A stretch of 64,000 nt of DNA from Rikenellaceae bacterium (GTDB lineage Bacteria; Bacteroidota; Bacteroidia; Bacteroidales; UBA932). This document shows, piece by piece, positions 6,033 through 48,885 of this stretch; within the stretch, counting starts at the first letter, position 1, and every line of letters starts with the position of its first letter. The DNA is taken from contig CAAGFN010000160.1 in assembly GCA_900769145.1 (NCBI GenBank), forward strand, positions 741 to 64,740. The letters run 5' to 3'. The notes under the pieces were generated by a model. That model made no database searches. It saw only the letters and a list, made by a program, of their open reading frames with translations, and was not told where the DNA came from. The translations under genes and the position numbers were made by a program.

Positions 6033-6046
6033 ATTCTGTCTGTTGA

Positions 6047-7837: not shown

Positions 7838-7846
7838 CCCTTTCCA

Positions 7847-10800: not shown

Positions 10801-10849
10801 GAAGCAGGGAGGCCAATGCGCTCACTATTATTTTGTATGTATTCATCAT
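7847..10849 (-). CDS. SusC family TonB-dependent outer membrane transporter
   Basis: 1000 aa with N-terminal signal, carboxypeptidase-regulatory-like domain, plug and barrel motifs (ILYGPRAANGVLIITTKRG), and a C-terminal F. Confidence 0.9.
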   Translation of the reverse strand: MMNTYKIIVSALASLLLVSGYSFAAESGRKSGGAKAELLSFKIRIEDPEGRPVTNARILSSAGAFVWNADDEGVISLSTKPKQNLLLQAEGFEEVQFAVTKNTVPESIMLIRSRTSTSAAAISSIDGDELEAYPEMVFSNILQGRIPGLQVMLSASGLGNNVPDVYIRGNHGNDGNGAIFIVDGLERTISDIVPEEVEKVEVLKDAVAKILYGPRAANGVLIITTKRGKAGTRVIRATAECGVNVAARVPEYLNAYEYVALYNEARANDGLAPKYSPEQIEGYRNSTGPNDLLYPDVDWYDYFTRNTSTYKNFMVDMTGGTDRIRYSLILNYKRGTGFESVGKLPSLDRFNIRGNIDVKVTDYLNVFADAAARLEVREWGQRNMSSVYGALSGNRPNEYPLMISAEDLGLAPNEDGVPFFGCTNRSGGNLLADMEYGGFNAERYINSMVNLGLDFDFDIFVKGLKAKAALMYDNYSYFGQGQTNIYPTYAIRGTNMDDIEFVQMRKQSLQSNQSRTSDNFNQTLGFYARADYSRVFGKHGLDAGLLYNYYQNEVNGSGQNHRNENLNLRVSYDYDQRYAIEATGSLMGSARYAKGNRHFLAYAVGASWIISNEPFLKSARGVDFLKLRASFGHLGFDRNTGYLLYETAWSNGGNYTLGEQNKGTVERTTSFVRFGKDVKWEYSNELNIGIDGSFLGHRLNVTVDGFRETRNNIVTAQTADLAAVHGDFVTVVNGGSVRNWGMDGRISWNDRVGDFHYEIGVNATWTANKLLSWNQVNYPDGGTVAVGKPTDAMFGHTALGLFGRDVALDGAPLQHFGDYGNGSIAYADTNNDGHVDSRDRTMIGNRFPRLTSGIDVRLGYKGWELFLCGTAQAGKWSFNDNSFWQIDGEDKYSVIALERYHPENNPDGKYPSLTTRSAANNFVNSTFWLQNASFFRLKDAELSYTFDFLKAGVKKLRLFVRGTNLFIISADGHLDPETVNAGVSTYPLYKTITGGASITF

Positions 10850-10876
10850 CGTGTGTTTTAGATTTGAAGAAAATCA

Positions 10877-12757
10877 TCACCAGAGCGGGTTCTGTACAAG
10901 ATTGTTCAATGAGGCCACATCGTTCATCGAGAACGGATACCAGTAATTCCTCATTTCGAATACTCTCTGTTCAGGGATCACGTCCACTACCTCGTAAGTG
11001 AACTTGAGAGTGGATTTATCCGCAACTTTGGCGTGATTAGGGTCAAGCGGTATCGCCTTGATTCCCTTGATCGGATACTGTTCCCCGAACAGTTCGTGCG
11101 CAATCATCCATCTGCGGATATCCCACCAACGGTTGTTCTCGAACATCAACTCGACGCAACGCTCGCGGCGATAAGCCTCACGGAACGCCACAGGATCATT
11201 GACTATCACTTCAGGGATATCGCTGACACCGGCCCTCGCGCGTATCACATTAAGAGCCTCCTCGGCGGTCATATCACAGCCGTCAACTTTGGCAGTCGCA
11301 CTTCCTGTCGCCTCAAATGACGCCTCGGCGAAATCCAGATATATCTGGGCAAACCTGATGTAAACCGTTATGTTCCTGTATTTGCGGTATTCACCCATAA
11401 AGGTGTCTGCCCCTTCCCAGATATATTTCTTGCACATATATCCAGTCACCTGACGGTTGTTGGTAGCCTTGTTCTCCGCAGCCTCCTTGTAAAGGTCTCC
11501 TCCCTGATACAATGTGATGTAGAGTTTCTCTCCCGTAACCTTCTGTCCCCACTTCTCGCCCGGGACAAGTATATTGTTGGCGAAGCGCGGATCCCTGTCC
11601 TTGTAAGGGTCCTGCGGATCATATCCTGAGCGGGCATCCGCTATCGGCCAGTATTGTCCGTCCGGGCCGCATTTCTCGAACATATCCACCATGTTCTGGG
11701 TAGGACAGCAATATGCCACTGCGTCATTTCCGGTTCCTTCGGCATACACTCCCGGAAGCCACATTGTCCTGAGATATCTTGTAAATGCCTCATTCTTGTT
11801 CACGGTTGCCCCAGGAGTGGCCTGAGATCTGTTGTACCAGAGATATTCAGGCTGGGTGTATGGGGGTGCGGTCCAGTAGAATATATGCCTGTAGGACTCT
11901 CCGCCAGGCATAAGCGCATAGCCGAACTGCGGATTTCCCGTCACATACTTTATGACATCGTATGCAGCCTTTGCTGCCACCGCGGCTCTTTCCTTGTCAT
12001 AATTCTTAATCTCAATGGTCTTGAGATCATTCTGCATCAGCGGGCTGGCATCATAGAGGCAGGCCATGGACTTCACTGCCATCGCAGCCACCTTGGTAGG
12101 ACGCCCTGTGTTGTCGGTATCCCACACATCGGGCAGGAGGGAAATCGCCTTGTCAAGGTCCGAAACCATCCAGTCGTGAGACTCGTGATATGTCATCCTC
12201 GGACGGTCCTCCTCACCTTCTCCGATGAAGAGCATATCGAATTTCGGCATTCCCCCATATCTCTTTATGAGCTGGAAATAGAACCATGCACGGAGAAAAT
12301 AAGCCTGGCCGAGCAGTTCGTCTTTCTGGGCACCGGTGATGACATTGACCTTGTCAACATCCCTGATGACCCTGTTCACGATACGCAGACCCTTGTAGGA
12401 ATGGTAGATGGACGTGCCGCCATTGTCGGAACTGTTGCCGATTTCGTATGCGGTAATGTTCTGGGAGAGCCAGTTTCCTGAGTTTAGAACCCTGGACTCC
12501 GCACTGTTATAGATACAACCAAGTTCATCCGAGAATGTTCCAGGATGGGAACGTCCGTTATTGGTTCCATGATATTTGTATATCTGGTCAAGATATGCGT
12601 ATGCCCCGTCCAGAAAACCGCGGAAAGAATTGTAATCCTTATAGACATCAGATTCCGACAATCCCATATCAGGAGATTTGTCTAGAAAATCCTCGCAGGA
12701 AGTAAGACATCCTACGGAAATCAGAAGTACCGACAGAATTATTGTAAGTCTTTTCAT
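10877..12757 (-). CDS. SusD/RagB family lipoprotein (second copy)
   Basis: 626 aa with lipobox GCLTSC. SusD-like composition, downstream of the second SusC. Confidence 0.9.
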   Translation of the reverse strand: MKRLTIILSVLLISVGCLTSCEDFLDKSPDMGLSESDVYKDYNSFRGFLDGAYAYLDQIYKYHGTNNGRSHPGTFSDELGCIYNSAESRVLNSGNWLSQNITAYEIGNSSDNGGTSIYHSYKGLRIVNRVIRDVDKVNVITGAQKDELLGQAYFLRAWFYFQLIKRYGGMPKFDMLFIGEGEEDRPRMTYHESHDWMVSDLDKAISLLPDVWDTDNTGRPTKVAAMAVKSMACLYDASPLMQNDLKTIEIKNYDKERAAVAAKAAYDVIKYVTGNPQFGYALMPGGESYRHIFYWTAPPYTQPEYLWYNRSQATPGATVNKNEAFTRYLRTMWLPGVYAEGTGNDAVAYCCPTQNMVDMFEKCGPDGQYWPIADARSGYDPQDPYKDRDPRFANNILVPGEKWGQKVTGEKLYITLYQGGDLYKEAAENKATNNRQVTGYMCKKYIWEGADTFMGEYRKYRNITVYIRFAQIYLDFAEASFEATGSATAKVDGCDMTAEEALNVIRARAGVSDIPEVIVNDPVAFREAYRRERCVELMFENNRWWDIRRWMIAHELFGEQYPIKGIKAIPLDPNHAKVADKSTLKFTYEVVDVIPEQRVFEMRNYWYPFSMNDVASLNNLVQNPLW

Positions 12758-12778
12758 GCTTTCAAAATTTATATTCCA

Positions 12779-15700
12779 TTAGAATGTCAGCCTGAGACCT
12801 GTGTTGTATCTCTTGATCAGCGGATAAACATCATTTCCGGATGTTTCCGGGTCCCTTCTCTTGTCCACTCCGGAGAATGTGAAAAGATTGTTGCCGTTCA
12901 CATAGACCTGAAGCCTGCTGATTCTCGCAGCCCGGAGCCATTTCTTCGGAAGTTCATAACTTAGTTCAACCTCCTTGAGCCTGGCATAAGAATGGTCAAC
13001 ATAGGTGTAGGTGCTGCCTTTGGTATTGTAATGATTCTTCTCCAGATGGGCTGCAGGTCTTGAAACCCCGTTCATACCGGCCTTTGCCACTGTCCATCTG
13101 TCAAGAGTTTTCGGCTGGGCCTTGACATTGGACTCAGGGAAATCCCAGAGGAACTGTGAAAGTTGATCCTTGTACACTCCCGTAGCGGCATATAGCATTG
13201 CACTGAAGCCGAGTCCCTTCCAGTTGAATCCAATACTTAGACTTCCTGTGGTAACAGGGTAGCTCAAGTGCTTCATCGGAATCATATCCTTGTCATTGAT
13301 GACTCCATCGGCATTGTAGTCCATATAGGCGAAGTCACCCGGGTCCAGCTTGTTCTGTGCGGCATTGGTGATATTCACCGTACTGTAGTTGAATATATCA
13401 TCGATTGAGGTCAGATTGCCGGCCACTATATACCTTGTCTGATACCCGATAGGCTTCCCGGCTTTCTTGAGGTAGTCGTCAAGCTTGGACGGATCATCTC
13501 TGAACACCACACGGTTCTCGCTTGTGGAGAAATTGAGTTTTGCGAAATAATGGAAATCCGTCCCGGCTTTCGCCGCCCACCCCATTTCGACATCAATACC
13601 GTGATTCTTGGTCTTGCCTATGTTCACGGACGGGAGGCCTGCTCCCACCCAAGGAGCCACCGTGTTCCTGGACATCAGGATACCGCGTCTCTTCTCGCTG
13701 AACAGGTCAACGGCAATCCTGAGATTGTGGACAAGAGTAAGTTCAATACCGAGATTCTGCTTGATGGCAGTCTCCCATGTCGCATTCGGATAAGCAAGGC
13801 TGCCCTCCGTATATATAGGCCCGAAATTCACGGTCTGGTCGTATCCGAACTGGGCATTGCCGCCTGAACTGTAAAGCTGGATATAGTTGAACCTTCCCGC
13901 ACCCCTGTCGCTACCTACCATACCGTAGGAATAGCGAAGCTTGAGATTGTTGAGCCATTTTTGCTTAAGACTCTTCATAAACGGTTCCTCTGTAACCCTC
14001 CAGCCCACTGAGAACGACGGGAAGAATCCGAATCTCTTGCCCGGGGCAAATTTCTCGGACCCGGTATATGAGGCATTGGCCTCTGCAAGATAGCGTTCCT
14101 TCCAGTTATAGGTCACGCGACCGACCCAGGCCTCCTCGAATGAGGAGAATGCCACTGAGGAGCCGCTTCCGGAGTCGGCCACCCTTCTGTTGAAGAGGGC
14201 CAACGCAGTCACATCGTGTCCCTTGAAGTTCCTGGCATAGTTCAATGCCACTTCATAGTAGAGTTCCCTGGTATGTCTCGAGAAATTGTCATAGGATGTC
14301 CCTACCGGCCTGTCATCCTCAATCTGGGCATCAGGGAACCTGAGTTCGGTAAGCAGCGGATATGTAACGGAGCCGTCTTCGGCTACAATCGGATTGGCAT
14401 AGTCGTATGTCCTGTAGTACCTTACAGCCACGGCCTTGCTGGACTCCGAGTCGGCGATTTCATATATCCTCGCCTTCATGATGCTGGATGACTTGCTCTG
14501 GGAACTGGTATATGATACAGAACCTTTCACAGACAGTCCTTTGGTAATCATGCTGAGGTCCTGATTGAGCACCACGTCATAGAAGCCCTGATAACTTGTG
14601 TATTGTCTCTGCCCCTGAAGGTTCATCTGCACGTAGATATTGCTGCCTCCAAGATTGTCGGAACCGTAATATCCGTCGGAATACATAATAGGGAACATGT
14701 TGGAAGGTGTCTCAAGCAAAGGCTTGAAGATATATGAGTCACCTCCGTCAGGGTCCCTGTAGCCAGGCTGGTTCCTGTAGGACATCTTGCCTGCGATATT
14801 CACGGAGAGCTTGGTCGTCTTCGTAATCTGGAAGTCCATATTGGACCTGAAATTGTACCTCTGATACCAGAAACGCGGATCAAACTCGTCCTGCTTCTGA
14901 ATATTGAATATATCGCCGTCGTTGAGATATCCCAAAGAAGCAAAATAGGTTACTCTGTCCGAACCGCCTCTTACGTTGAGATTGTAATTCTGCGAGAATC
15001 CGAAATTCTTGACAGACTGGTCCCACCAGTCAACTTCCGGAAAATAATCATTGTACGGGCCGTAATTGCCTATACGGTAGGCCTCCTCCCATGCAGAAAC
15101 GGTTGATTCCGGTATAACCTTGTCCCAGAGGCCATCATTTGCGGCAGCCTCATTGAACATCTTCATTGCAGTAGGATAGTCAGCCCATTCATAATCCGTA
15201 GTCGGTTGTTTGAAACCGAAGTTGGCAGAAAAGTTGACGGTAGTCCTGCCGCTATCTCCTCTCTTGGTGGTCAGAAGTATTACTCCGTTCGCACCCTTGA
15301 CTCCGAACACAGCAGTGGCCGAAGCGTCCTTAAGCACTGAGATGGATTCTATTTCATTGATATCCACATCGTTGAAATCACGTTCAATTCCATCCACGAG
15401 GACGAGAGGGGCTGCCGAACCCCAGGTGGCCTTGCCTCGGATGAAAATACTGGCGGCATCACTTCCCGGCTTGGAGTTGGTGCTGATGGATACAACTCCG
15501 GCCAACTGGCCCTGAAGAGCCTCAGAGACTGAATTAACCCTTGTGGCCTTTTCCAGATCCTCACCCTTGGCCGTACTGATGGAACCGACACTGGAAGCCT
15601 TCTTCTGCTGTCCATATCCCACGACCACCGTTTCCTCGAGCATCACGGCATCAGCAGTCATCGCCACGACAACAAAGGCCTGTCCGGCCTTCACCTTGAA

Positions 15701-15952
15701 AGACTCGTCCTCGTATCCGATACAGGAAAATATCAGTTCGGTACCGGGAGCAACCCTCATTGAGAAATTGCCGTCAATGTCAGTACTCGTTCCGGTAGTC
15801 GTCCCCTTCACGGTAACATTGGCACCGATGACAGGCTCGCCGGTAGAGTCATCCCTTACCTCTCCGGAGAGAATTATCTCCTGAGCCTGAAGGGCTGGCG
15901 ATGCCAGTAGCAGAGCAAAGACAAACAGGCATTTGAATACTTTTGTCCTCAT
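12779..15952 (-). CDS. SusC family TonB-dependent transporter (second copy)
   Basis: 1057 aa with signal peptide. Carries the SusC N-terminal extension and TonB-box region (EETVVVGYGQQKKASSVGS). Confidence 0.9.
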   Translation of the reverse strand: MRTKVFKCLFVFALLLASPALQAQEIILSGEVRDDSTGEPVIGANVTVKGTTTGTSTDIDGNFSMRVAPGTELIFSCIGYEDESFKVKAGQAFVVVAMTADAVMLEETVVVGYGQQKKASSVGSISTAKGEDLEKATRVNSVSEALQGQLAGVVSISTNSKPGSDAASIFIRGKATWGSAAPLVLVDGIERDFNDVDINEIESISVLKDASATAVFGVKGANGVILLTTKRGDSGRTTVNFSANFGFKQPTTDYEWADYPTAMKMFNEAAANDGLWDKVIPESTVSAWEEAYRIGNYGPYNDYFPEVDWWDQSVKNFGFSQNYNLNVRGGSDRVTYFASLGYLNDGDIFNIQKQDEFDPRFWYQRYNFRSNMDFQITKTTKLSVNIAGKMSYRNQPGYRDPDGGDSYIFKPLLETPSNMFPIMYSDGYYGSDNLGGSNIYVQMNLQGQRQYTSYQGFYDVVLNQDLSMITKGLSVKGSVSYTSSQSKSSSIMKARIYEIADSESSKAVAVRYYRTYDYANPIVAEDGSVTYPLLTELRFPDAQIEDDRPVGTSYDNFSRHTRELYYEVALNYARNFKGHDVTALALFNRRVADSGSGSSVAFSSFEEAWVGRVTYNWKERYLAEANASYTGSEKFAPGKRFGFFPSFSVGWRVTEEPFMKSLKQKWLNNLKLRYSYGMVGSDRGAGRFNYIQLYSSGGNAQFGYDQTVNFGPIYTEGSLAYPNATWETAIKQNLGIELTLVHNLRIAVDLFSEKRRGILMSRNTVAPWVGAGLPSVNIGKTKNHGIDVEMGWAAKAGTDFHYFAKLNFSTSENRVVFRDDPSKLDDYLKKAGKPIGYQTRYIVAGNLTSIDDIFNYSTVNITNAAQNKLDPGDFAYMDYNADGVINDKDMIPMKHLSYPVTTGSLSIGFNWKGLGFSAMLYAATGVYKDQLSQFLWDFPESNVKAQPKTLDRWTVAKAGMNGVSRPAAHLEKNHYNTKGSTYTYVDHSYARLKEVELSYELPKKWLRAARISRLQVYVNGNNLFTFSGVDKRRDPETSGNDVYPLIKRYNTGLRLTF

Positions 15953-16166: not shown

Positions 16167-17588
16167 ATGAATACAAAACTGCTTCTGTCATCGGCGGCAT
16201 TGCTCCCGCTGACCCTGACATCCTGCGGAGACAAGACCGCCAAGGCTGAACGGCTCCCCAATGTCATATATATAATGGCTGACGACCTAGGAATCGGAGA
16301 CCTCGGCTGCTACGGGCAGAAAATGATAAAGACGCCCGGCATCGACTCGCTGTCCCGCCTCGGAATGACATTCGCCAACCACTACTCCGGCTCCACCGTC
16401 AGCGCTCCTTCCAGATGCTGCCTGATGACCGGAAAACATACGGGTCACAGTTTCATCCGCGGCAACAAGGGTAATCCCGACACCGTCCTGAAGACCCATT
16501 TCGACTACCCTCTGGACGGAAGCGAGCTGACCGTCGGTGACCTTTTCAAGGAAGCCGGCTACACCACAGCCTGCGTGGGCAAATGGGGTCTTGGAGGACC
16601 GCGTACCACGGGCCATCCGAACCGCAGGGGCTTCGACTACTTCTTCGGCTATCTCGGCCAGGGCCGCGCGCACAGATATTATCCTGACTATCTCTGGGAG
16701 AATGAGGAGCAGGTAATGCTCGACAAAAAAGTATATTCGCACGACCTGATGATGAGCAAGGCCCTCGATTTCGTCAATGAAAATGCGGACAAGCCTTTCT
16801 TCCTATATCTCACCCCTACCATCCCGCACGCCGACCTCATCGTGCCGGAAGGCGAACTCGGGGAATATGACGGAATGTTCGAGGAAAAGCCGTATATCAA
16901 CAAGTCCAAGGACGGCAAGGGCTACACCAGCCAGCCCAAGCCGCGAGCCACATACGCAGCCATGGTGAGCCGCCTCGACAGGGATGTAAGCAGGCTGATG
17001 GGGCTTCTCAGGGCCAAGGGCATAGCCGACAACACCATTGTCATCTTCACCTCCGACAACGGAGTGCACAAGGAAGGCGGACACGACCCTGACTACTTCG
17101 ACTGCAACGGGGACTTCCGCGGAATCAAGCGTGATCTCTATGACGGCGGAATCCACACCCCGTTCATCGTCTATTGGCCGGGAGTAATCGAGCCTGGCAG
17201 CACCACGGACCACGTATCGGCATTCTGGGACTTCATGCCTACAGTCTGCGACCTCATCGGAGTCAAGGCCCCGAAGGACATCGACGGCATCTCATACCTC
17301 CCGACATTGACCGGGAAAGGCAAGCAGAAGAAGCACGACTATCTCTACTACGAGTTCCATGAGAAAGAAGGCCGCAAATGCGTGCTGAAGGACGGCTGGA
17401 AACTGGTCCAGCTCAGGGTCAATGTGCCTGGGGAAACATATTTCGAACTCTACGACCTCAACACCGACCCTGAGGAAAACAACAATGTCCTTGAAGCCAA
17501 TCCTTCCAAGGTCAAGGAACTAAAGAAGATAATGGAGGAGGCCCGCACGGAGAACCCTAACTGGAATTTCACACCGGACGCACCATAA
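16167..17588 (+). CDS. Ser-type sulfatase (arylsulfatase family) lipoprotein
   Basis: 473 aa with lipobox LTSCG. Sulfatase signature is S-A-P-S-R-CCLMTGK, with Ser rather than Cys at the formylglycine position. Confidence 0.9.
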   Translation: MNTKLLLSSAALLPLTLTSCGDKTAKAERLPNVIYIMADDLGIGDLGCYGQKMIKTPGIDSLSRLGMTFANHYSGSTVSAPSRCCLMTGKHTGHSFIRGNKGNPDTVLKTHFDYPLDGSELTVGDLFKEAGYTTACVGKWGLGGPRTTGHPNRRGFDYFFGYLGQGRAHRYYPDYLWENEEQVMLDKKVYSHDLMMSKALDFVNENADKPFFLYLTPTIPHADLIVPEGELGEYDGMFEEKPYINKSKDGKGYTSQPKPRATYAAMVSRLDRDVSRLMGLLRAKGIADNTIVIFTSDNGVHKEGGHDPDYFDCNGDFRGIKRDLYDGGIHTPFIVYWPGVIEPGSTTDHVSAFWDFMPTVCDLIGVKAPKDIDGISYLPTLTGKGKQKKHDYLYYEFHEKEGRKCVLKDGWKLVQLRVNVPGETYFELYDLNTDPEENNNVLEANPSKVKELKKIMEEARTENPNWNFTPDAP

Positions 17589-17591
17589 AAT

Positions 17592-20500
17592 ATGAAATAC
17601 GGAAAAATAATGTCAATGTCTCTGCTGGGCCTTGTCCCGGCGGAGGCTTTCGCCGCTTCCGACGATGCCAGAAAGCCCAATGTGATTGTCATCCTGGCCG
17701 ACGACTACGGCTGGAAGGATGCCGGCTTCATGGGGAGCGACATCTACGAGACTCCTAACCTCGACAGACTCGCATCCCGAAGTGTGGTATTCACCAACGG
17801 ATATGCAGCCTGCTCAGTATCAAGCCCTTCCAGAGGCAGTATCCTCACCGGGCTATATCCGACAAGGCACGGCATAACCACCTGGATAGGCGACCCTTGC
17901 GGAGAGGACTGGAGAGTCAAGGGCAGGCATAACAGGATGCTCCCAGCACAATACGCCTGGGAACTTGACCCTTCCTTCGTAACCATCCCGGAAGTCCTGA
18001 GAGAGCAGGGCTACCGGACATTCATGGCGGGGAAATGGCATCTCGGTGACAAGGTGAATCCGGAAGACCAGGGCTTCGACATCAATGTGGGCGGCTGGGA
18101 GGCCGGCAATCCTAAAGGCGGCTATTTCTCCCCGTATGCCAACCCCGTGCTGGAAGACGGGCCTGCCGGCGAGAATCTCTCCGAAAGACTGTGCAGGGAG
18201 ACCGCACGTTTCATTGAGCAGGAGGCCGGGGAAGGACGTCCGTTCTTCGCCTATCTCTCATTCTACGCAGTCCACGGTCCCATCCAGACCACAGAGGAAC
18301 TCTGGAACAAATACCGCAAGAAAATCACCGACCTGGGGCTCAATGAAGGCGAAGGCTTCTACGTGGACCGCCTGATGCCTGTCAGAAAGTATCAGGACAA
18401 CCCTGTGTATGCAGGTCTCATTGAGCAGATGGACAGGGGCATCGGAATCGTCCTTGACAAGATTGAGGAACTCGGAATCGGTGACAATACTGTAATAATA
18501 TTCACCTCTGACAATGGAGGAGTGACCTCCGGGGACAATTTTGCCACCTCGATCCTCCCTCTCCGCGGAGGTAAGGGCCGTCAATGGGAAGGCGGCACCA
18601 GAGTTCCTTACATTATCCATACTCCCGGGATGGAACGCAGCCGGATAAGCGACACCCCGGTCAGCGGCATTGACATTTTCCCGACTGTTCTGGAAATGGC
18701 GGGAGCCGGCAGCAGGGACGTGGACGGAACCAGCCTCGTGCCTCTGCTTGAGGGCAGGACCACGAAAACACTGAAGACAAGGCCTCTCTTCTGGCATTAT
18801 CCGCATTACGGGAACCAGGGAGGAGAACCGTCATCCACCATACGCAAAGGCGACTGGAAACTGATATGGTATCACGAGGACGGACGCTACGAGCTCTACA
18901 ACCTCGCGGAGGACATTGGGGAACACAACCCGGTTCAGAATCCTGAGAAGGAGGAGGAACTCAAGGCCGGACTTCAGGCCTGGCTCAGCGAAACCAATGC
19001 CAAACTGCCGTCACAGGACCCTGAATGGACAGCCGAAATAGAGAAGGCCTATCTGGACAAGGTCATTCCTAAATCCCTTGAGAGACAGGAGGATATAAGA
19101 CACGCCATGCTGGACCCGAACTGGGCTCCGGATGCATCCTGGTGGGGTTCCAGACCGTTCTGCAATGGCTGGAAATTCATTCTTGACGACATTGCCGAAG
19201 CATCATCAAAGGACTTCGACGACAGCGGCTGGAGAACACTCAACGTGCCTCACGACTGGGCCTTCGAACAGGGGTACAGTCCGGATGCCGCACAGGAGGA
19301 CAAGGGCGGCTACGCCTGCGGAGGAACAGGCTGGTACAGAAAGCATTTCGCATTGTACGCCAATGAGATACAGGACCGCCAACTATTCGTGGACTTCGAT
19401 GGAGTCTACATGAACAGCGAGGTCTGGATCAACGGGCATTATCTAGGGAAACGGCCTTACGGCTATATCAGTTTCACATACGACATCACCCCTTACATCA
19501 AGGCCGGGGACAATGTTCTCAGCGTCAGGGTGGACAACAGCAGGGAGCCAAGCGCAAGGTGGTATCACGGCTGCGGTATCTACGGCGACGTAAGACTCCG
19601 CTACGAGAAGCCTCTTCATTTCGTAAAGGACGGCATTTACATAACAACGCCAGTTGCTGACAGTCTCAAGTCCACAGTATCAGTCACTTATGAATTGAGC
19701 CAAGTCCCGGATGCGAAAGTCAGGGCATGGATTGAAAAGGACGGAAGAAGCGTCTCGGACACATTGTCATCGACCAGTGGAAAATTGCTCTTTACGTTGG
19801 GAAAGACCTCCCTTTGGAGTCCTGAGACCCCGGTACTCTACACATTGAAAATGAGGGTTCATGACAGCGATGGCAGGGTCAGCGACTCGGAGTCCATCGA
19901 CTTCGGCATAAGAAGCATAAAATGGGTGGCAGGCAAAGGATTCTTCCTCAATGGCAGGCAGACCAAGCTCAGGGGCGTTTGCGAACATCTGGAGGGTGGA
20001 CCTGTCGGGGCAGCCTGGACAAGGGACCTCCTGGAGTGGAAACTTCGTATGCTCAAGGAGATGGGCTGCAATGCAATACGCACTGCCCATAATCCCCAGG
20101 TCCCGATGTTCTACGACATCTGCGACCGTATCGGCCTAATGGTGATGGACGAGGCATTCGACGGATGGAAGGCCAAGGCACCTCAGGATTATGGCGCACA
20201 GGCATTTGCGGAATGGTGGGAAAGAGATCTCAGGGCAATGCTGAGGCGCGACCGGAACCATCCTTGCGTAGTGGTCTGGAGTGTCGGCAATGAGACATCC
20301 GGGGACGTGGCTGGAAGCCTCGTAAAGGTTTGCCGATCTGAGGATCCTACCAGGCTGGTAACATCCGGGGATGCCGGAGCCGACCAGATGGACGTCATCG
20401 GAATCAACGGCAAGAGCGAGAGGCAGAATTTCTACAAAAACTATAAGCCGGGCCTCAGGGCATTCGTCGGGACTGAGACCCCGCACACTTGGCAGACAAG

Positions 20501-22088
20501 GGGATATTACCGTACAATGACTTGGTATAGAGACGGTTATCCAAACAAGGGACAGGACCCGTTCCTGATTCCTGACCTGACGGAGAAAGAAGTATTCGGC
20601 TATGACTGGACTTCCCCGGAGGAGAGGAGAAATGTCAAGCAGATCTTCAATTCCTCATACGACAATGCCACCGTACGTCTCACCGCAAGGCATAACCTGG
20701 CATTCCTCCGTAACCTCGACTGGTACTCCGGCCACTTCCGCTGGACAGGATTCGACTACCCTGGCGAGGCAGGATATGTACACGGAGGATGGCCTTTCAG
20801 GACATTCCAGGGCGGAGTCATTGACCTGGCAGGATTCAAGAAAGACCATTTCTACCTATACCAGAGCCAGTGGCGGGAAGACATTGATATGGTCCACATT
20901 CTACCACATTGGACCCATCCTGACATTGCCGAAGGCACCATCATACCTGTCTGGGTCTATACCACGGGAGACGAGGCGGAACTTCTGCTGAACGGCAGAA
21001 GCCTCGGGCGTGTGAAGAAGGGCCTTGACTGGGACAAGATGCAATGCGGCTGGGATGTCCCATGGACCCCTGGAAAACTCACTGCCATAGCCTATCGGAA
21101 CGGCATGGAGATATGCAGGGAAAGCATTTCCACAGCCGGGGCGCCGGCCACGTTCTCGGTGAAGAAAGAGGGAAACATTGAGAATGGAAACGCCATCCTG
21201 ACATTCACCCAGAAGGACAAGGGGGGCAACATTTTCCCGTACGGGGACAACCGGCTCTTCCTGTCCCTGACGAATGCCACGGTGCAGTCATTCGAGAACG
21301 GCAATCCGGTCGATACGGAATGTCGCTGGCAGGCTCCTTCACTGAGATGCTTCTTCGGTATGTCCAGGGCATTCATCCGCAGAAACGAGAGCGTCGGCAA
21401 TGTGGTGGCTCTAGCCGGAATGATCTGCGGGGACAGGTCCTGCAAGGTCTCCGACGAGGCATCCATCGTTATCCATGAGATAACTTTGAAGGGCAAGAAT
21501 GCAAGGCATCAGTTCGAGGTCAGATATACTCTGGACGGCAGCGAGCCGGGAAGGGAATCGGCCTTGTACACGGGTCCTTTCCGCATTGCTCCGGGAATGA
21601 AGGTAAGGGCTAAGGTCTGGTGCAACGGCAATGAGGTCCTGTCAATGGAGGAGGACTTCGGAAACGGCATCTTCTGGGGTGTTCCGGGTGCCGCCCCATG
21701 CAAGGATGAAGGGTCCCAGGCTGAATACATGGATTTGTCAGGTGCGGTAGTACGCAACACCTCCGGCCTCGATGTCTATGGAGGAGGCTATGTGCTCTTC
21801 AAGGAGAAGGGCGGTTCGATTTCCTGGTACCAGGAGAATGACGGGGCGGCGTACGACTCTGTCCTGAAAATAAGATATTCACAGGGCAGGACAGCCACCG
21901 GAGTCACCAGGGCAGAACTGACTAACAATGGAGCCTCAGTGTGCATTATCGATTTCAAGGATACCGGAAGCGAGAACAGCGACTGGACAGAACTGGAAGT
22001 CCCGGTCACATTGATTTCCGGAGCCAATAATCTGAGAATCAAGATATTGGACAAGAGCGGTCCGTCCATTGACAGCATCAGTCTCTGA
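17592..22088 (+). CDS. Multidomain enzyme in one ORF: N-terminal Ser-type sulfatase, GH2 glycoside hydrolase, and a C-terminal beta-sandwich (CBM-like)
   Basis: Single uninterrupted 1498-aa ORF. Signal peptide is followed by a sulfatase domain (SSPSRGSILTGLYPTRHG; PLRGGKG). From about aa 500 a GH2 module follows (NGWKFILDD...WRTLNVPHDWA...WINGHYLG...SVGNETSG), then a putative CBM. The start lies 3 nt after the upstream sulfatase stop. Confidence 0.8.
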   Translation: MKYGKIMSMSLLGLVPAEAFAASDDARKPNVIVILADDYGWKDAGFMGSDIYETPNLDRLASRSVVFTNGYAACSVSSPSRGSILTGLYPTRHGITTWIGDPCGEDWRVKGRHNRMLPAQYAWELDPSFVTIPEVLREQGYRTFMAGKWHLGDKVNPEDQGFDINVGGWEAGNPKGGYFSPYANPVLEDGPAGENLSERLCRETARFIEQEAGEGRPFFAYLSFYAVHGPIQTTEELWNKYRKKITDLGLNEGEGFYVDRLMPVRKYQDNPVYAGLIEQMDRGIGIVLDKIEELGIGDNTVIIFTSDNGGVTSGDNFATSILPLRGGKGRQWEGGTRVPYIIHTPGMERSRISDTPVSGIDIFPTVLEMAGAGSRDVDGTSLVPLLEGRTTKTLKTRPLFWHYPHYGNQGGEPSSTIRKGDWKLIWYHEDGRYELYNLAEDIGEHNPVQNPEKEEELKAGLQAWLSETNAKLPSQDPEWTAEIEKAYLDKVIPKSLERQEDIRHAMLDPNWAPDASWWGSRPFCNGWKFILDDIAEASSKDFDDSGWRTLNVPHDWAFEQGYSPDAAQEDKGGYACGGTGWYRKHFALYANEIQDRQLFVDFDGVYMNSEVWINGHYLGKRPYGYISFTYDITPYIKAGDNVLSVRVDNSREPSARWYHGCGIYGDVRLRYEKPLHFVKDGIYITTPVADSLKSTVSVTYELSQVPDAKVRAWIEKDGRSVSDTLSSTSGKLLFTLGKTSLWSPETPVLYTLKMRVHDSDGRVSDSESIDFGIRSIKWVAGKGFFLNGRQTKLRGVCEHLEGGPVGAAWTRDLLEWKLRMLKEMGCNAIRTAHNPQVPMFYDICDRIGLMVMDEAFDGWKAKAPQDYGAQAFAEWWERDLRAMLRRDRNHPCVVVWSVGNETSGDVAGSLVKVCRSEDPTRLVTSGDAGADQMDVIGINGKSERQNFYKNYKPGLRAFVGTETPHTWQTRGYYRTMTWYRDGYPNKGQDPFLIPDLTEKEVFGYDWTSPEERRNVKQIFNSSYDNATVRLTARHNLAFLRNLDWYSGHFRWTGFDYPGEAGYVHGGWPFRTFQGGVIDLAGFKKDHFYLYQSQWREDIDMVHILPHWTHPDIAEGTIIPVWVYTTGDEAELLLNGRSLGRVKKGLDWDKMQCGWDVPWTPGKLTAIAYRNGMEICRESISTAGAPATFSVKKEGNIENGNAILTFTQKDKGGNIFPYGDNRLFLSLTNATVQSFENGNPVDTECRWQAPSLRCFFGMSRAFIRRNESVGNVVALAGMICGDRSCKVSDEASIVIHEITLKGKNARHQFEVRYTLDGSEPGRESALYTGPFRIAPGMKVRAKVWCNGNEVLSMEEDFGNGIFWGVPGAAPCKDEGSQAEYMDLSGAVVRNTSGLDVYGGGYVLFKEKGGSISWYQENDGAAYDSVLKIRYSQGRTATGVTRAELTNNGASVCIIDFKDTGSENSDWTELEVPVTLISGANNLRIKILDKSGPSIDSISL

Positions 22089-22170: not shown

Positions 22171-23556
22171 CTACCAAGTGAACTCAGTGCTCTCCGTGTG
22201 GCATTCCGTGGCGAGACGGCGCAGACGGTCAGCCTTGGCCGGATACTTCCCGATCAGATCATTCTCCTCGGCAGGGTCATCATTGAGGTTGTAGAGTTCC
22301 TCCTTCAGTTCTTCCGGATTGGACATATTCAGACGCACCAGTTTCCAGCCGTCTTTCAGAACCGACTGCTTGCCGCCTTTCTCATAGAACTCGTAGTAGA
22401 TGTGATCGTGCTGCCTCTGGCGGCCTTTTCCTGTCAATGTCGGCAGATATGAGATGCCGTCAATGCCTTCAGGCTTCTCCGCCCCTACGATATCGCAGAC
22501 GGTCGGCAGGAAATCCCAGAATGCGGAAATGTGGTCTGTGACGCAGCCAGAATGGATTTTCTCCGGCCAGGAGACGATGAACGGCGCCCTGACACCGCCC
22601 TCGTAGAGATCTCTCTTGTAGCCGCGGAACGGTCCGTTGCTGTCGAAGAAGTCCGGGTCGTGGCCGCCGACCATGTGAACACCGTTGTCGGATGAGACGA
22701 TTAGAATCGTGTTCTCCCAGATGCCCAGTTCCTTGAGAAGTCCGATTACCTGGCCGACATTGCGGTCAAACTCGCTGACCATCGAGGCGTAGGCAGCCTT
22801 GGGCTTAGGCTGGGACATATAACCCTTGCCGTCCTTGCTCTTGTTGATGTACGGGGTCTCAGGGAAGGCCTCCTCATAATCCCTGAAATCCGGATAATCC
22901 AGGTCGGCGTGCGGAGTCGTCACGGCAAAATACGTGAAGAACGGCCGGCCGGCATTGTCCCGGATGAACTGCAGGCCCTTCTCCATTATGGCGAAATGAC
23001 TGTACACCTCTCCGTTAAGCATATCCTTGCTCTCATTCTCATAGAGATACTCAGGATAATACCTGTGCGCAGCCCCCTGCGAGAGATATCCGTAGAAATA
23101 ATCGTATCCCTGATTCACCGGACTGCCCTCGGTACCAGGCCCGCCCAATCCCCATTTGCCGACGCAGGCGGTGGCATAGCCCTGGGACTTAAGTATCTCG
23201 GCAACAGTTACTTCCGAACCCGGAAGATGAATATCGAATCCGCCCTGCGGGGTCTTCTCGCCCTTGTTCCCGCGCACGAAGGCGTGTCCGGTATGCTTAC
23301 CTGTCATCAGACAGCAACGTGACGGAGCGCTGACGGTCGAGCCGGAATAATGATGGGTGAACAACATCGACTCCCCCGCCAGAGCATCAATGTTCGGAGT
23401 CTGAATCAGTTTCTGCCCATAGCAGCCGACATCGCCGATTCCCATGTCGTCAGCGAGCATAAATACGATATTCGGTTTCTGCGGTGTCTCCGCCGGAGCG
23501 GTTCCGCAAGCGGTCGCCAGCAACGCCGGGACCATCAGCAGTTTGTCATTTTTCAT
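22171..23556 (-). CDS. Ser-type sulfatase, paralog of 16167..17588
   Basis: 461 aa with lipobox LATACG. Carries the STVSAPSRCCLMTGKHTGH signature and is highly similar to the first sulfatase. Confidence 0.9.
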   Translation of the reverse strand: MKNDKLLMVPALLATACGTAPAETPQKPNIVFMLADDMGIGDVGCYGQKLIQTPNIDALAGESMLFTHHYSGSTVSAPSRCCLMTGKHTGHAFVRGNKGEKTPQGGFDIHLPGSEVTVAEILKSQGYATACVGKWGLGGPGTEGSPVNQGYDYFYGYLSQGAAHRYYPEYLYENESKDMLNGEVYSHFAIMEKGLQFIRDNAGRPFFTYFAVTTPHADLDYPDFRDYEEAFPETPYINKSKDGKGYMSQPKPKAAYASMVSEFDRNVGQVIGLLKELGIWENTILIVSSDNGVHMVGGHDPDFFDSNGPFRGYKRDLYEGGVRAPFIVSWPEKIHSGCVTDHISAFWDFLPTVCDIVGAEKPEGIDGISYLPTLTGKGRQRQHDHIYYEFYEKGGKQSVLKDGWKLVRLNMSNPEELKEELYNLNDDPAEENDLIGKYPAKADRLRRLATECHTESTEFTW

Positions 23557-23640: not shown

Positions 23641-27764
<4,124 letters not shown>

Positions 27765-27938
27765 CAGTCATACCCGCTTACAAAACTGATAATACGCAAT
27801 TCGTACATGTGGTCTTGGTTCTGTGGGATCTTGATTTGGCGCTGTCACGTGGCCGGCGACATTCAGGGGCTCGAACACGACACGCTGTAGAAAGTCACAA
27901 AGCCGGCGGAGCGAAACTTGGGCGGAGCTTGCGAACAA

Positions 27939-28730
27939 CTATAGTTTCCTGACGAAATTCAGGAGGATGTTGAAAGCCGGGTCGGCCATTGAGCCGTGGT
28001 CGTGGCCGCCCAGCTCGTAGATGTTCGTGGTGGTGCTGCCGACCAGCTTCATCATGCGCCAGAGATAGGCATTCTCCTCGTAGCGGCCGAACAGTTCAAG
28101 CTCACGGTCGCCGACAATGAGTTCCATCGGAGGGCAATCCTTGCGTACCCAGTACAATGGGGCGTATTCGTCAATGGTAGGCTGGAGATTGCCTATGCCA
28201 TTCATCTCACGGTAGGAGAAATGGCTGATGGCCTGGCCGCTGAATGGGACGTAGCCGGCAATGTCGTCGGCATCGACACCGTAATTGGCTAGCCACTTCT
28301 TGTCCAGGGCCAGCATCATTGAAAGATAACCGCCGGCAGAATGCCCTGAGACGACTATTTTGCCGGGATCTCCGCCGTAGCGAGCAATATTGTTCCGCAC
28401 CCAGGCAACGGCCTCGGCGGCATCGTCAATGGTCTTGTCAATGGTAACTTTCGGGAGCAGCCTGTAGTTCACTCCCACGACGACAATGCCCTTTTCCTTC
28501 AGTTTCCAGGGAATCTCCTTCTTCCCCTGGACAAGTCCACCGCCATGAAACCAAACGACCACTGGAGCGTCCTCTGTTCCCTTGGGATAATATACATCAA
28601 GCTTGAGTCTTTCCGTCGAGTAGTCATCTGTCTTGGCGGTGTAACTTATGTCCTGGTCGGTCTTGTAGGTCTGCGCCCAGGCGGTCTGGACAGCGAGGAG
28701 GACCAGAAGAAATGAGAGAAACTTTTTCAT
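27939..28730 (-). CDS. Alpha/beta-hydrolase esterase (second copy)
   Basis: 263 aa with signal peptide. Motifs VWFHGGG and GHSAGG are present. Confidence 0.8.
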   Translation of the reverse strand: MKKFLSFLLVLLAVQTAWAQTYKTDQDISYTAKTDDYSTERLKLDVYYPKGTEDAPVVVWFHGGGLVQGKKEIPWKLKEKGIVVVGVNYRLLPKVTIDKTIDDAAEAVAWVRNNIARYGGDPGKIVVSGHSAGGYLSMMLALDKKWLANYGVDADDIAGYVPFSGQAISHFSYREMNGIGNLQPTIDEYAPLYWVRKDCPPMELIVGDRELELFGRYEENAYLWRMMKLVGSTTTNIYELGGHDHGSMADPAFNILLNFVRKL

Positions 28731-28752
28731 TGTTCTAGTGTTTATGTTAGGC

Positions 28753-33443: not shown

Positions 33444-33530
33444 AAGAGATGAGTAATCCTTCAGAAGGGGAATTTTTCCCCAACATCCTGACAAAAATAC
33501 AATTTTTCTTGCTACTTTTGGGACATTGTT

Positions 33531-48650: not shown

Positions 48651-48885
48651 AAATCTGCAAGATTGCAGGCCTCATATTACTTGGCAAGGTGGAATTCCCA
48701 TTAAAAGGCTGCCGAACGCCAATAAGGTTTATCCGTCTGCAACTCAATAAGTTATAATGGTCACCACAACATAGTGGAATCTTCTAACCTAAAAAATTCA
48801 TACATTTGTGGTGTAAAGTCCCGTATATTGGTGAAATATTTCGGGGCTTTGTTTTTTATGCTTTTCTTCGCCAAAAAACTTGACG

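What the first reader, a model, noticed from the sequence alone, without database searches (positions are those of the whole stretch)
17592..22088. Single 1498-aa ORF fusing a Ser-type sulfatase to a GH2 glycoside hydrolase and a C-terminal beta-sandwich
The reading frame runs uninterrupted from a signal peptide through a complete sulfatase domain (S-S-P-S-R formylglycine motif; aa ~25-490). It continues directly into GH2 sugar-binding, Ig-like and TIM-barrel modules (aa ~500-1150), followed by a putative carbohydrate-binding module. A covalent sulfatase-glycosidase pair suggests processive desulfation then cleavage of a sulfated beta-galactoside-type glycan by one secreted enzyme. The gene starts 3 nt after another Ser-type sulfatase, so it is translationally coupled to it. 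Such fusions are uncommon, and a sequencing frameshift or lost stop should be excluded.
Basis: partly seen in the sequence, partly recalled or inferred. Interest (0 to 1): 0.6.

Follow-up and report, generated by a model that had tools for sequence, protein, structure and literature searches.

The report
Conserved sulfatase–β-galactosidase fusion enzyme
One gene of an uncultured animal-gut Bacteroidales bacterium really does join a sulfate-removing enzyme to a galactose-cleaving enzyme and a sugar-binding module; the design principle is already known from a marine enzyme, but this particular pairing appears not to have been described.

Summary
The 1498-aa ORF at 17592-22088 (+) is real. It encodes a signal peptide, a Ser-type S1 sulfatase, a complete GH2 with both catalytic glutamates, a small β-sandwich and a CBM35-fold module.

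It is not an assembly artefact. The same fusion is intact in at least 24 contigs read from several different samples at 95% identity. It also occurs in homologues at 72, 69, 68 and 45% identity.

Stand-alone relatives of the sulfatase stop exactly where the GH2 part begins. Stand-alone relatives of the GH2 part carry a signal peptide there. There is therefore no added linker.

The sulfatase is closest to S1_16 exo-sulfatases that act on Gal/GalNAc sulfate. The GH2 is closest to exo-β-galactosidases that work only on desulfated ends.

The gene lies in a polysaccharide utilisation locus (PUL) of a Candidatus Cryptobacteroides genome, between two S1_20-like sulfatases.

Most likely it is a periplasmic two-step exo-enzyme: it desulfates a terminal β-galactose, then removes it. 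Substrate and sulfate position are inferred, not shown.

The principle is known from the GH78–S1_25 enzyme of Formosa agariphila. This S1_16–GH2 pairing is rare, has arisen repeatedly, and was not found in the literature searched. Interest is moderate.

The parts
17592..22088 (+). Whole fusion gene: 1498 codons plus stop.
   Evidence: The fusion is conserved in P0001-P0005.
17592..17657 (+). Predicted signal peptide, aa 1-22 (MKYGKIMSMSLLGLVPAEAFA|AS). AxA type, with no lipobox cysteine.
   Evidence: By inspection. The N-terminus is conserved in orthologues. AF2 pLDDT is below 50 for residues 1-25. No signal-peptide predictor was run.
17670..19016 (+). S1 formylglycine-dependent sulfatase catalytic module, aa 27-475, S1_16-like.
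   Evidence: Pfam PF00884 and PF16347. phmmer hits: 6UST E 3e-111, 9FO1 (S1_16) E 3e-110. Foldseek to 6UST: TM normalised to target 0.89.
17820..17834 (+). Formylglycine motif S77-S-P-S-R81. Ser type, so it needs an anaerobic maturase.
   Evidence: The fused homologue P0005 has C-S-P-S-R at the same place.
19017..19154 (+). C-terminal tail of the sulfatase clade, aa 476-521. Predicted long helix 481-507, then a short low-confidence hinge 513-518. The fusion point is at its end.
   Evidence: Stand-alone relatives end ...WWGS(R/K/M)xx(x)D-stop (or WWDSKTVD-stop) exactly here. AF2 secondary structure and pLDDT.
19167..19913 (+). GH2 sugar-binding β-sandwich (aa 526-673) and Ig-like domain (aa 682-774).
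   Evidence: Pfam PF02837 and PF00703.
19929..20906 (+). GH2 TIM-barrel catalytic domain, aa ~780-1105. Acid/base E901 lies in N-E (nt 20292-20294). Nucleophile E962 lies in G-T-E-T (nt 20475-20477).
   Evidence: Pfam PF02836. Alignments to 3GM8, 5T98, 9BEY, 7CWD and 4YPJ. Both Glu are invariant in A1.
20934..21404 (+). GH2 accessory β-domains: DUF4982 (aa 1115-1175) and a weak GH2 C-terminal domain 5 (aa 1202-1271).
   Evidence: The precomputed Pfam domains of homologues include PF18565.
21408..21656 (+). Small β-sandwich, aa 1273-1355 (CHB_HEX_C_1 / Fn3_assoc-like).
   Evidence: Pfam hits. AF2 strands in model residues 2-83, pLDDT ~90.
21699..22085 (+). CBM35-fold module, aa ~1370-1498.
   Evidence: AF2 pLDDT above 90. 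Foldseek to the CBM35 structures 2VZR, 2VZP and 2W1W: E ~1e-8 or better, TM normalised to target 0.83-0.88. Pfam CBM_6 E 0.002, below the cut-off. Some homologues carry precomputed PF03422 or PF16990.
16167..17588 (+). Upstream Ser-type sulfatase, 473 aa, S1_20-like, with a lipoprotein-type N-terminus. It ends 3 nt before the fusion gene.
   Evidence: Pfam. Nearest PDB chains are 7ANA and 7AN1. Motif and N-terminus. Gap.
22171..23556 (-). Convergent downstream Ser-type sulfatase, 461 aa, S1_20-like, with a lipoprotein-type N-terminus.
   Evidence: Syntenic in L001-L004 and L087-L092.
6047..15952 (-). Two SusC/SusD-like pairs, divergent from the sulfatase operon: SusD 6047-7837, SusC 7847-10849, SusD 10877-12757, SusC 12779-15952.
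   Evidence: Pfam. Conserved with the fusion in the orthologous loci.
23644..30744 (.). Variable right arm of the locus: LacZ-type GH2 (23644-26826 +), two BD-FAE esterases (26823-27764 +, 27939-28730 -) and GH97 (28753-30744 -).
   Evidence: Pfam. This arm is absent from the 69% orthologue locus and partly decayed in the 95% relatives.

Best explanation
This is a genuine, vertically conserved gene fusion in a gut Bacteroidales bacterium (Candidatus Cryptobacteroides).

Origin: a stand-alone S1_16-type sulfatase gene lost its stop codon and was joined in frame to the mature N-terminus of a widespread ~1000-aa GH2. The GH2 lost its own signal peptide in the process.

Proposed mechanism: the product is exported to the periplasm. 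There it acts on imported oligosaccharides that carry a sulfated β-galactose at the non-reducing end.
- Step 1: the sulfatase module, with Ser77 converted to formylglycine by an anaerobic maturase encoded elsewhere, removes the sulfate from the terminal Gal. The 4-O position is most likely.
- Step 2: the GH2 module (E901 acid/base, E962 nucleophile) releases the now unsubstituted β-galactose.
- The CBM35-fold module holds the glycan.
- The two flanking S1_20-like lipoprotein sulfatases would take off other Gal sulfates (3-O type).

Shown: the fusion, the domain identities, the intact catalytic residues and the conservation.

Inferred: cellular location, order of the steps, sulfate position and substrate (host mucin-type or dietary sulfated galactan).
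For: The fusion is real:
- It is intact at 95% identity in at least 24 contigs read, from several different samples.
- It is also intact at 72, 69 and 68% identity and at 45% (P0005).
- GC3 is uniform across the junction.

Junction anatomy: stand-alone sulfatase relatives end ...WWGSxx(x)D-stop at aa 521. Stand-alone GH2 relatives have a signal peptide up to the residue that aligns with aa ~522.

Sulfatase half:
- It is ~50% identical to 6UST and to 9FO1.
- 9FO1 is AMOR_S1_16A, an exo-sulfatase that removes the 4-sulfate from non-reducing Gal4S of κ-carrageenan oligomers (PMC11760155).
- W98 aligns with the stacking Trp that is critical in the 4S-Gal/GalNAc sulfatases BT3057 and BT3796 (bioRxiv 10.1101/2021.07.23.453482).
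- D37, D38, S77, R81, K148, H150, H228, D307, N308 and K328 are all present. All except position 77 (Ser, or Cys in P0005) are invariant among the fused homologues.

GH2 half:
- Its nearest solved relatives are 3GM8, BuGH2A (5T98), the λ-carrageenan GH2 (9BEY) and the B. circulans β-galactosidases.
- The 9BEY enzyme releases Gal only after an exo-sulfatase has desulfated the terminal residue (PMC12549532).
- The NCBIfam best hits are the β-galactosidases GalA and GalB.

Context:
- The core cassette is conserved: 2x SusC/D, an S1_20-like sulfatase, the fusion, and a second S1_20-like sulfatase.
- The same pair occurs as adjacent separate genes in Pontiella, S1 followed by GH2 (L035).
- Unrelated S1-GH2 fusions also exist: P0005, P0133, P0150 and P0196.
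- A characterised precedent with the same logic is the F. agariphila GH78-S1_25 enzyme (PMC8360166).
Against: - No activity data exist.
- S1_16 also holds an enzyme described as 6S-GalNAc-specific (6UST). AMOR H149, which lies near the substrate sugar, is N173 here. The sulfate position is therefore open.
- 3GM8, the closest GH2 structure, is uncharacterised. Identity to characterised β-galactosidases is only 30-36%. The NCBIfam GalA/GalB scores (544 and 515 bits) are below the 900-bit cut-off.
- Only 8 of 80 loci with stand-alone relatives of the sulfatase have a GH2 homologue within the fetched flank of about 10 kb. The pairing is not a general property of this sulfatase clade.
- AF2 gives pTM 0.62 for aa 1-1200, with a low-confidence hinge at 513-518. 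There is no evidence for a fixed geometry or for channelling between the two sites.
- No anSME gene and no regulator were found in the window.
Confidence: 0.6

Rival explanations
1. Assembly or sequencing artefact: two adjacent genes, a sulfatase and a GH2, were merged by a lost stop codon or a frameshift.
For: Related genomes do carry the two as separate neighbouring genes, for example Pontiella L035. The nearest unfused GH2, P0266, follows a sulfatase gene.
Against: - The identical architecture is present in at least 24 contigs read, from several different samples, at 95% identity.
- It is also present in 6 contigs at 69%, and in further clusters at 68, 72 and 45%.
- The junction residues are conserved.
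- No remnant of a GH2 signal peptide lies at the junction.
- Composition is uniform across the junction.
Confidence: 0.02
2. Both modules are active but do not act in sequence on the same terminal residue. For example, the GH2 may remove an unsulfated β-Gal first and the sulfatase may then act on the newly exposed GalNAc/GlcNAc sulfate. Alternatively the two may act on different branches. In either case the fusion would serve only co-localisation and 1:1 stoichiometry.
For: - S1_16 members act on GalNAc as well as Gal, and one is described as 6S-GalNAc-specific.
- The predicted hinge and the pTM of 0.62 give no fixed inter-site geometry.
- Most stand-alone relatives of the sulfatase have no GH2 nearby.
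Against: - The known exo-sulfatase/exo-glycosidase pairs work in the order sulfatase then glycosidase on the same terminal sugar (PMC12549532, PMC8360166).
- The Trp that closes the S1_16 pocket (the exo mode) is conserved as W98.
Confidence: 0.25
3. The GH2 module is not a β-galactosidase. It could be a β-glucuronidase or another β-glycosidase, so the target would be a different sulfated glycan, for example a glycosaminoglycan.
For: - The closest structure, 3GM8, has no assigned activity.
- The best CBM35 structural matches are uronic-acid-binding modules.
- The NCBIfam β-galactosidase models are matched below their cut-off.
Against: - All characterised near relatives are β-galactosidases: 5T98/5T99, 9BEY, 7CWD, 4YPJ and 4CU6, with E 1e-95 to 1e-128. 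β-Glucuronidases score far lower, E 1e-55 or worse.
- By eye, the segment that aligns with the N-x-K carboxylate-binding motif of E. coli GUS reads F-Q-G here. This is my own alignment from memory, not a tool result.
Confidence: 0.12
4. One of the two catalytic modules is dead and now serves as a binding or scaffold domain.
For: None specific. This is a general possibility in multi-domain CAZymes.
Against: - All metal-binding and catalytic residues of the sulfatase and both GH2 glutamates are present.
- Both halves are conserved at a similar level: 72-73% in each half in P0002 and P0003.
Confidence: 0.04

Closest known systems
Formosa agariphila P36, a multimodular GH78 α-L-rhamnosidase / S1_25 sulfatase of the ulvan pathway (PDB 6HR5 is its sulfatase part).
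   Same: One polypeptide joins an S1 exo-sulfatase to an exo-glycosidase. The sulfatase desulfates the non-reducing-end sugar, which the glycosidase then removes (PMC8360166). It is encoded in a Bacteroidota PUL.
   Different: - Different families: S1_25 + GH78 there, S1_16-like + GH2 here.
- Different sugar: rhamnose-3-sulfate there, presumably a galactose sulfate here.
- Marine ulvan degrader there, animal-gut anaerobe with Ser-type sulfatases here.
- The enzyme here carries an additional CBM35-fold module.
AMOR_S1_16A (PDB 9FO1) and the S1_16 sulfatases BT3057 and BT3796 of Bacteroides thetaiotaomicron.
   Same: These are the nearest characterised relatives of the sulfatase half (E 3e-110 to 9FO1). 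They are exo-acting on 4-sulfated Gal/GalNAc. The pocket-closing and stacking Trp is conserved as W98. BT3057 is also Ser type.
   Different: - They are single-module proteins of ~460-520 aa.
- They lack the 45-aa helical tail (aa 476-521) and any fused glycosidase.
- AMOR H149 is N173 here.
The exo-β-galactosidase GH2 of the Pseudoalteromonas λ-carrageenan locus (PDB 9BEY), BuGH2A (5T98/5T99), and the uncharacterised B. vulgatus GH2 3GM8.
   Same: These are the nearest solved relatives of the GH2 half. They share the domain order, including DUF4982 and the C-terminal Ig domains. The 9BEY enzyme needs prior exo-desulfation of the terminal Gal by a separate S1_8 sulfatase (PMC12549532).
   Different: In those systems the sulfatase and the GH2 are separate proteins. 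Identity to the GH2 part here is only 32-40%.
Stand-alone ~1000-1035-aa GH2 proteins of Rikenellaceae and Bacteroidales MAGs (P0266-P0381).
   Same: They are 50-64% identical over the whole GH2 + β-sandwich + CBM35 part (aa 522-1498). They lie in sulfatase-rich loci, directly after an S1_20-like sulfatase in L093, and after one plus a second GH2 in L094.
   Different: They carry their own signal peptide and no sulfatase module.

Membership tests
S1 formylglycine-dependent sulfatases | Sulfatase (alkaline-phosphatase-like) domain. | tested here: met
   PF00884 E 2.6e-57 over profile positions 1-301 of 301. Foldseek to 6UST: TM normalised to target 0.89.
S1 formylglycine-dependent sulfatases | C/S-x-P-x-R motif at the formylglycine position. 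| tested here: met
   S77-S-P-S-R81.
S1 formylglycine-dependent sulfatases | Metal-binding Asp/Asp/Asp/Asn and the catalytic Lys/His residues. | tested here: met
   D37, D38, D307, N308, K148, H150, H228 and K328 are present and invariant in A1. D37/D38 and H150 align with D18/D19 and H125 of AMOR_S1_16A.
S1 formylglycine-dependent sulfatases | A maturation enzyme for a Ser-type motif (anSME) in the same organism. | not testable with these tools
   No radical-SAM/SPASM gene was found among the window ORFs scanned. The rest of the genome is not available.
SulfAtlas subfamily S1_16 | The nearest characterised or solved relatives belong to S1_16. | tested here: met
   6UST E 3e-111, 9FO1 E 3e-110, 7STT E 8e-83; 7OZA and 7OZ9 also match. 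The S1_19 relatives reach only E 1e-61.
SulfAtlas subfamily S1_16 | Conserved Trp that stacks on the sugar and closes the pocket (AMOR W79, BT3057 W109). | tested here: met
   W98 aligns with it and is invariant in the fused homologues.
SulfAtlas subfamily S1_16 | Assignment by SulfAtlas BLAST, HMM or phylogeny. | not testable with these tools
   No SulfAtlas library is available here.
Glycoside hydrolase family 2 | GH2 sugar-binding, Ig-like and TIM-barrel domains in that order. | tested here: met
   PF02837, PF00703 and PF02836 are all above their gathering scores.
Glycoside hydrolase family 2 | Acid/base Glu in the N-E motif, and a nucleophile Glu. | tested here: met
   E901 (N900-E901) and E962 align with the N-E motif and with the G-S/T-E-T motif of 3GM8, 5T98 and 9BEY. 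In 4YPJ the N-E motif aligns; its G-S-E-T motif was located by its spacing of 85 residues, which matches E447/E532 of BgaD-D (numbering from my memory).
GH2 β-galactosidases (GalA/GalB type) | Score above the equivalog cut-off, or measured β-galactosidase activity. | tested here: inconclusive
   NF041463 544 bits and NF041462 515 bits, against a cut-off of 900. The nearest characterised relatives are all β-galactosidases.
CBM35 / CBM6 β-sandwich modules | CBM35 fold. | tested here: met
   AF2 mean pLDDT 90.9. Foldseek hits to 2VZR, 2VZP, 2W1W and 4QB1: E 4e-9 to 1e-7, TM normalised to target 0.83-0.88.
CBM35 / CBM6 β-sandwich modules | Sequence-profile membership. | tested here: not met
   Pfam CBM_6 18.8 bits against a cut-off of 28.9. 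Only some homologues carry precomputed PF03422 or PF16990.
Multimodular sulfatase-glycosidase exo-enzymes (F. agariphila P36 type) | Both catalytic modules in one polypeptide, conserved in relatives. | tested here: met
Multimodular sulfatase-glycosidase exo-enzymes (F. agariphila P36 type) | The sulfatase desulfates the same terminal residue that the glycosidase removes. | not testable with these tools
   Needs enzymology.
Bacteroidota polysaccharide utilisation locus | An adjacent SusC/SusD-like pair with the degradative enzymes. | tested here: met
   Two SusC/D pairs at 6047-15952, next to the sulfatase/GH2 genes. They are syntenic in the orthologous loci.

The most novel reading that the evidence does not exclude
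Joining an S1 exo-sulfatase to a GH2 exo-β-galactosidase may be a recurrent, independently evolved solution. On this reading the gut S1_16-GH2-CBM35 enzyme is a two-headed machine that hands the freshly desulfated chain end from one active site to the other, which would give a kinetic advantage over separate enzymes.

At least three origins are indicated: the gut Cryptobacteroides clade, the marine P0005, and the LacZ-type P0196 (with P0133 and P0150 as further candidates).

The fusion would also work as a 'Rosetta stone'. It would fix the so far uncertain specificity of a large gut branch of S1_16 as terminal β-Gal sulfate of host or dietary glycans.
Probability: 0.25. Interest if true: 0.5.

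Novelty: new variant of a known kind. Interest (0 to 1): 0.35.

Why it matters
Sulfated glycans such as mucins, glycosaminoglycans and algal galactans can be eaten by gut and marine bacteria only if each sulfate is removed before the matching exo-glycosidase acts. Which sulfatase serves which glycosidase is mostly unknown, and S1_16 is a large subfamily with few characterised members.

A conserved covalent S1_16-GH2 pair names the partner directly. That gives a concrete, testable hypothesis for the substrate: a non-reducing-end β-Gal sulfate.

It is also a natural test case for whether fusing the two steps speeds up degradation. If that were confirmed, it could serve as a compact tool enzyme for trimming sulfated galactosides.

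It does not change the general picture of how such glycans are degraded.

Tried and rejected
- Exact look-up of the window protein in the contig index: not on record. The 95% relative P0001 was used instead.
- GTDB genome scan with the fused alignment: the 80 loci kept hold no single ORF with both halves.
- Neighbourhood statistics: only 8 of 80 stand-alone relatives of the sulfatase have a GH2 homologue in the fetched flank. I therefore dropped the idea that this whole sulfatase clade is GH2-linked.
- The L094 sulfatase-esterase fusion was checked as a possible further fusion of the same sulfatase. Its sulfatase is only ~25% identical, so it is unrelated.
- Promoter and terminator scans around the operon gave counts no higher than shuffled sequence. 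No Rfam family was found in the window.
- No T9SS C-terminal sorting domain was found in NCBIfam.
- Literature searches for an S1-GH2 fusion found none. Neither SulfAtlas paper mentions one. The library is incomplete, so this does not prove that none has been described.
- The AF2 model of aa 1-1200 was meant to show the relative position of the two active sites. pTM is 0.62, the hinge has low confidence, and coordinates are not returned, so nothing can be said. No PDB chain matches both halves.

Full report
**Observation.** The window holds one ORF at 17592..22088 (+) of 1498 codons with an ATG start and no internal stop.
- Pfam finds a full-length Sulfatase domain (aa 29-372, E 2.6e-57) with the SGSH_C sub-domain (332-469).
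- Next come the three GH2 domains in canonical order: sugar-binding 526-673, Ig-like 682-774 and TIM barrel 780-942.
- After them lie DUF4982 (1115-1175), a weak GH2 C-terminal domain 5 (1202-1271) and a CHB_HEX_C_1/Fn3_assoc-like stretch (1304-1344).
- The formylglycine motif is S77-S-P-S-R81, that is Ser type.
- The upstream gene (16167-17588) is another Ser-type sulfatase. It ends TAA, followed by AAT and the ATG of the fusion, a 3-nt gap.

**Is the fusion real?** Yes.
- A search of 5.8 billion proteins returns the same architecture at 95% identity (P0001; 35 member sequences, 31 contigs). It also returns it at 69% (P0002), 68% (P0003), 72% (P0004, a truncated NCBI MAG protein) and 45% (P0005).
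- Contig look-ups show P0001 intact in at least 24 contigs read, from several different samples, up to 325 kb long. P0002 is intact in 6 contigs and P0005 in 2.
- In the alignment of the six fused proteins the junction region is conserved, and both sets of catalytic residues are invariant.
- GC3 is 0.658, 0.662 and 0.655 in the sulfatase, GH2 and C-terminal parts.
- A lost stop codon in this one assembly is excluded.

**Anatomy of the junction.**
- Stand-alone relatives of the sulfatase are about 530 aa long and 47-62% identical. They come from an Alistipes MAG, Pontiella, Maribellus and others, and they cover query residues 1-521.
- They end ...WWGS(R/K/M)xx(x)D-stop (or WWDSKTVD-stop) exactly where the GH2 part starts in the fusion (...SWWGSRPF|CNGWKF...).
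- Stand-alone relatives of the GH2 part carry a signal peptide up to that same point.
- So there is no inserted linker. Residues 476-521 are the natural tail of this sulfatase clade, which the crystallised S1_16 enzymes lack.
- AF2 predicts this tail as a long helix (481-507) followed by a six-residue low-confidence hinge (513-518). For aa 1-1200 mean pLDDT is 79 and pTM 0.62. This gives no confident relative placement of the two catalytic modules.
- No solved structure covers both halves.

**The sulfatase half.**
- The nearest solved relatives are 6UST (Hungatella hathewayi, E 3e-111) and 9FO1 (E 3e-110), at about 50% identity. Next come 7STT and the B. thetaiotaomicron S1_16 enzymes 7OZA and 7OZ9. 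S1_19 carrageenan sulfatases follow at E 1e-61.
- 9FO1 is AMOR_S1_16A. It removes the 4-sulfate from the non-reducing Gal4S of κ-carrageenan oligomers in exo mode (PMC11760155).
- BT3057 and BT3796 are 4S-Gal/GalNAc sulfatases in which a stacking Trp (W109) is critical (bioRxiv 10.1101/2021.07.23.453482).
- That Trp (AMOR W79) aligns with W98 here and is invariant in the fused family.
- D37, D38, R81, K148, H150, H228, D307, N308 and K328 are all in place.
- One sugar-proximal residue differs: AMOR H149 is N173 here. S1_16 also contains an enzyme described as 6S-GalNAc-specific. The sulfate position is therefore not settled.
- Ser-type motifs need an anaerobic maturase, which fits a strict gut anaerobe. 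No such gene lies in the window.

**The GH2 half and the C-terminus.**
- Nearest structures are 3GM8 (B. vulgatus, uncharacterised; E 8e-166), BuGH2A (5T98/5T99), the λ-carrageenan GH2 9BEY, the B. circulans β-galactosidases 7CWD and 4YPJ, and S. pneumoniae BgaA. β-Glucuronidases score far lower.
- The acid/base (N900-E901) and the nucleophile (E962 in G-T-E-T) align with the corresponding motifs of these enzymes.
- The best NCBIfam models are the β-galactosidases GalB and GalA, but below their cut-offs.
- The 9BEY enzyme releases galactose only after an exo-sulfatase has desulfated the terminal residue, because its -1 subsite cannot take a sulfated Gal (PMC12549532).
- An AF2 model of aa 1273-1498 (pLDDT 90.9) shows two β-sandwiches. 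The second matches CBM35 modules (2VZR, 2W1W, 4QB1; TM normalised to target 0.83-0.88). At sequence level it is only a sub-threshold CBM_6 hit.
- The whole GH2 + β-sandwich + CBM35 unit is common as a stand-alone ~1000-1035-aa protein in Rikenellaceae and Bacteroidales MAGs, at 50-64% identity over 100% of aa 522-1498.

**Context and organism.**
- PheS from the window is 98% identical to proteins named Candidatus Cryptobacteroides sp.. This is an uncultured Bacteroidales genus whose named species come from chicken and horse faeces.
- The fusion lies in a PUL. Two SusC/SusD pairs (6047-15952, minus strand) diverge from the operon made of an S1 sulfatase and the fusion. A third sulfatase converges at 22171-23556.
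- Both flanking sulfatases are nearest to 7ANA and 7AN1. From my own knowledge these are the S1_20 3S-Gal enzymes BT1622 and BT1636 of B. thetaiotaomicron.
- Both flanking sulfatases have lipoprotein-type N-termini, whereas the fusion has an AxA-type signal.
- This core cassette is syntenic in the 95% and 69% orthologous loci.
- The right arm (LacZ-type GH2, two BD-FAE esterases, GH97) is variable.
- The 3-nt spacing is kept at 95% identity, but it is 44 nt at 69%. Co-transcription is likely and strict translational coupling is not implied.

**Evolution.**
- In the nearest unfused relative (L093), an orthologue of the upstream S1_20-like sulfatase (72% identical) is followed directly by the GH2 (68% in the core).
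- In Pontiella (L035) an S1_16-like gene is followed by a GH2 gene, with the reading frames overlapping.
- Other fused S1-GH2 proteins exist with very different halves: P0005 (55% / 41% identity in the sulfatase / GH2 halves; marine, in a rhamnosidase-rich locus that also has a sulfatase-GH78 fusion), P0133 (41/31), P0150 (31/32) and P0196, which has a LacZ-type GH2.
- In NJ trees these fall apart from the gut clade. The fusion therefore arose several times.
- It is nevertheless rare. Four fused clusters were recognised among the best 150 of 1.84 billion representatives.
- Only 8 of 80 loci with stand-alone relatives of the sulfatase have any GH2 homologue in the fetched flank.

**Mechanism proposed.** The protein is a periplasmic two-step exo-enzyme.
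- The S1_16-like module removes the sulfate from the non-reducing-end β-Gal of imported oligosaccharides. The 4-O position is most likely.
- The GH2 module then releases the galactose.
- The CBM35-fold module contributes binding.
- The flanking S1_20-like lipoproteins remove other Gal sulfates.
- Shown here: the architecture, its conservation and the intact catalytic residues.
- Inferred: location, order of steps, sulfate position and substrate (host mucin-type or dietary sulfated galactan).
- Confidence in the full statement is about 0.6. That the fusion is real is about 0.98.

**Comparison with what is known, and novelty.**
- The design principle is established. The F. agariphila ulvan enzyme combines GH78 with an S1_25 sulfatase that desulfates the terminal rhamnose which the GH78 then removes. 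The same combination was reported for N. ulvanivorans (PMC8360166).
- In the carrageenan pathways the sulfatase and the GH2 do the same job as separate proteins.
- I found no description of an S1-GH2 fusion in the papers searched.
- Each module is an ordinary member of its family, and what is new is the combination. I therefore rate it as a new variant of a known kind and of moderate interest. It is a good target for enzymology and a useful clue to S1_16 specificity, but it is not a surprise to specialists.

Noticed in passing
window 23644-27764; loci L087-L092 16018-19327: The LacZ-type GH2 is intact here (1060 aa). In all six loci of the 95% relative it is broken into two ORFs (902+170 or 862+148 aa), and the esterase at 26823-27764 is reduced to a 29-aa ORF. 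The right arm of the locus seems to be decaying in those strains while the fusion stays intact.
   Followed up: partly
L093 3859-6966 (P0266): The nearest unfused GH2 nests inside the fused gut clade in an NJ tree of the GH2 part. It starts MKYTRAM..., like the fusion (MKYGKIM...). It also keeps 'GSMPF' just before the first GH2 strand, where the fusion has WWGSRPF. It may have lost the sulfatase module secondarily.
   Followed up: partly
L094 1664-4456; L005 14040-15504: Other sulfatase fusions lie in related loci. One is a 930-aa sulfatase + BD-FAE esterase, whose sulfatase is only ~25% identical to those of the window. The other is an 1180-aa sulfatase + GH78 gene 8.5 kb downstream of the fused homologue P0005, in the same gene array.
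   Followed up: partly
window 16167-16230 and 23497-23556 (-): Both flanking S1_20-like sulfatases have lipoprotein-type N-termini (...LTSC|GDK and ...ATAC|GT). The fusion has none. This suggests different cellular locations within one locus.
   Followed up: no
window 20487-20816 (aa 966-1075 of the fusion): The segment after the GH2 nucleophile is strongly conserved in homologues (for example SSYDNATVR and FRWTGFDY). AF2 nevertheless gives it pLDDT below 50 over long stretches.
   Followed up: no
window 52573-54495 (-): A 640-aa ORF combines a Glucosamine_iso (NagB-like) domain with a PIG-L deacetylase domain. Next to it, at 54639-56843, is a 734-aa BACON-domain protein.
   Followed up: no
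window 30786-34070 (-): The mechanical MutS ORF is 1094 aa, but the called gene in the 95% relatives is 885 aa and the Pfam domains start at residue 218. The true start is probably well downstream of the first ATG.
   Followed up: no
window 1873-3321 (-) and 48880-50184 (+): Two long ORFs (482 and 434 aa) have no Pfam match. At 5142-6056 lies a BT_3987-like/BT_3044-like protein directly after the outer SusD gene, possibly a surface glycan-binding protein of the PUL.
   Followed up: no
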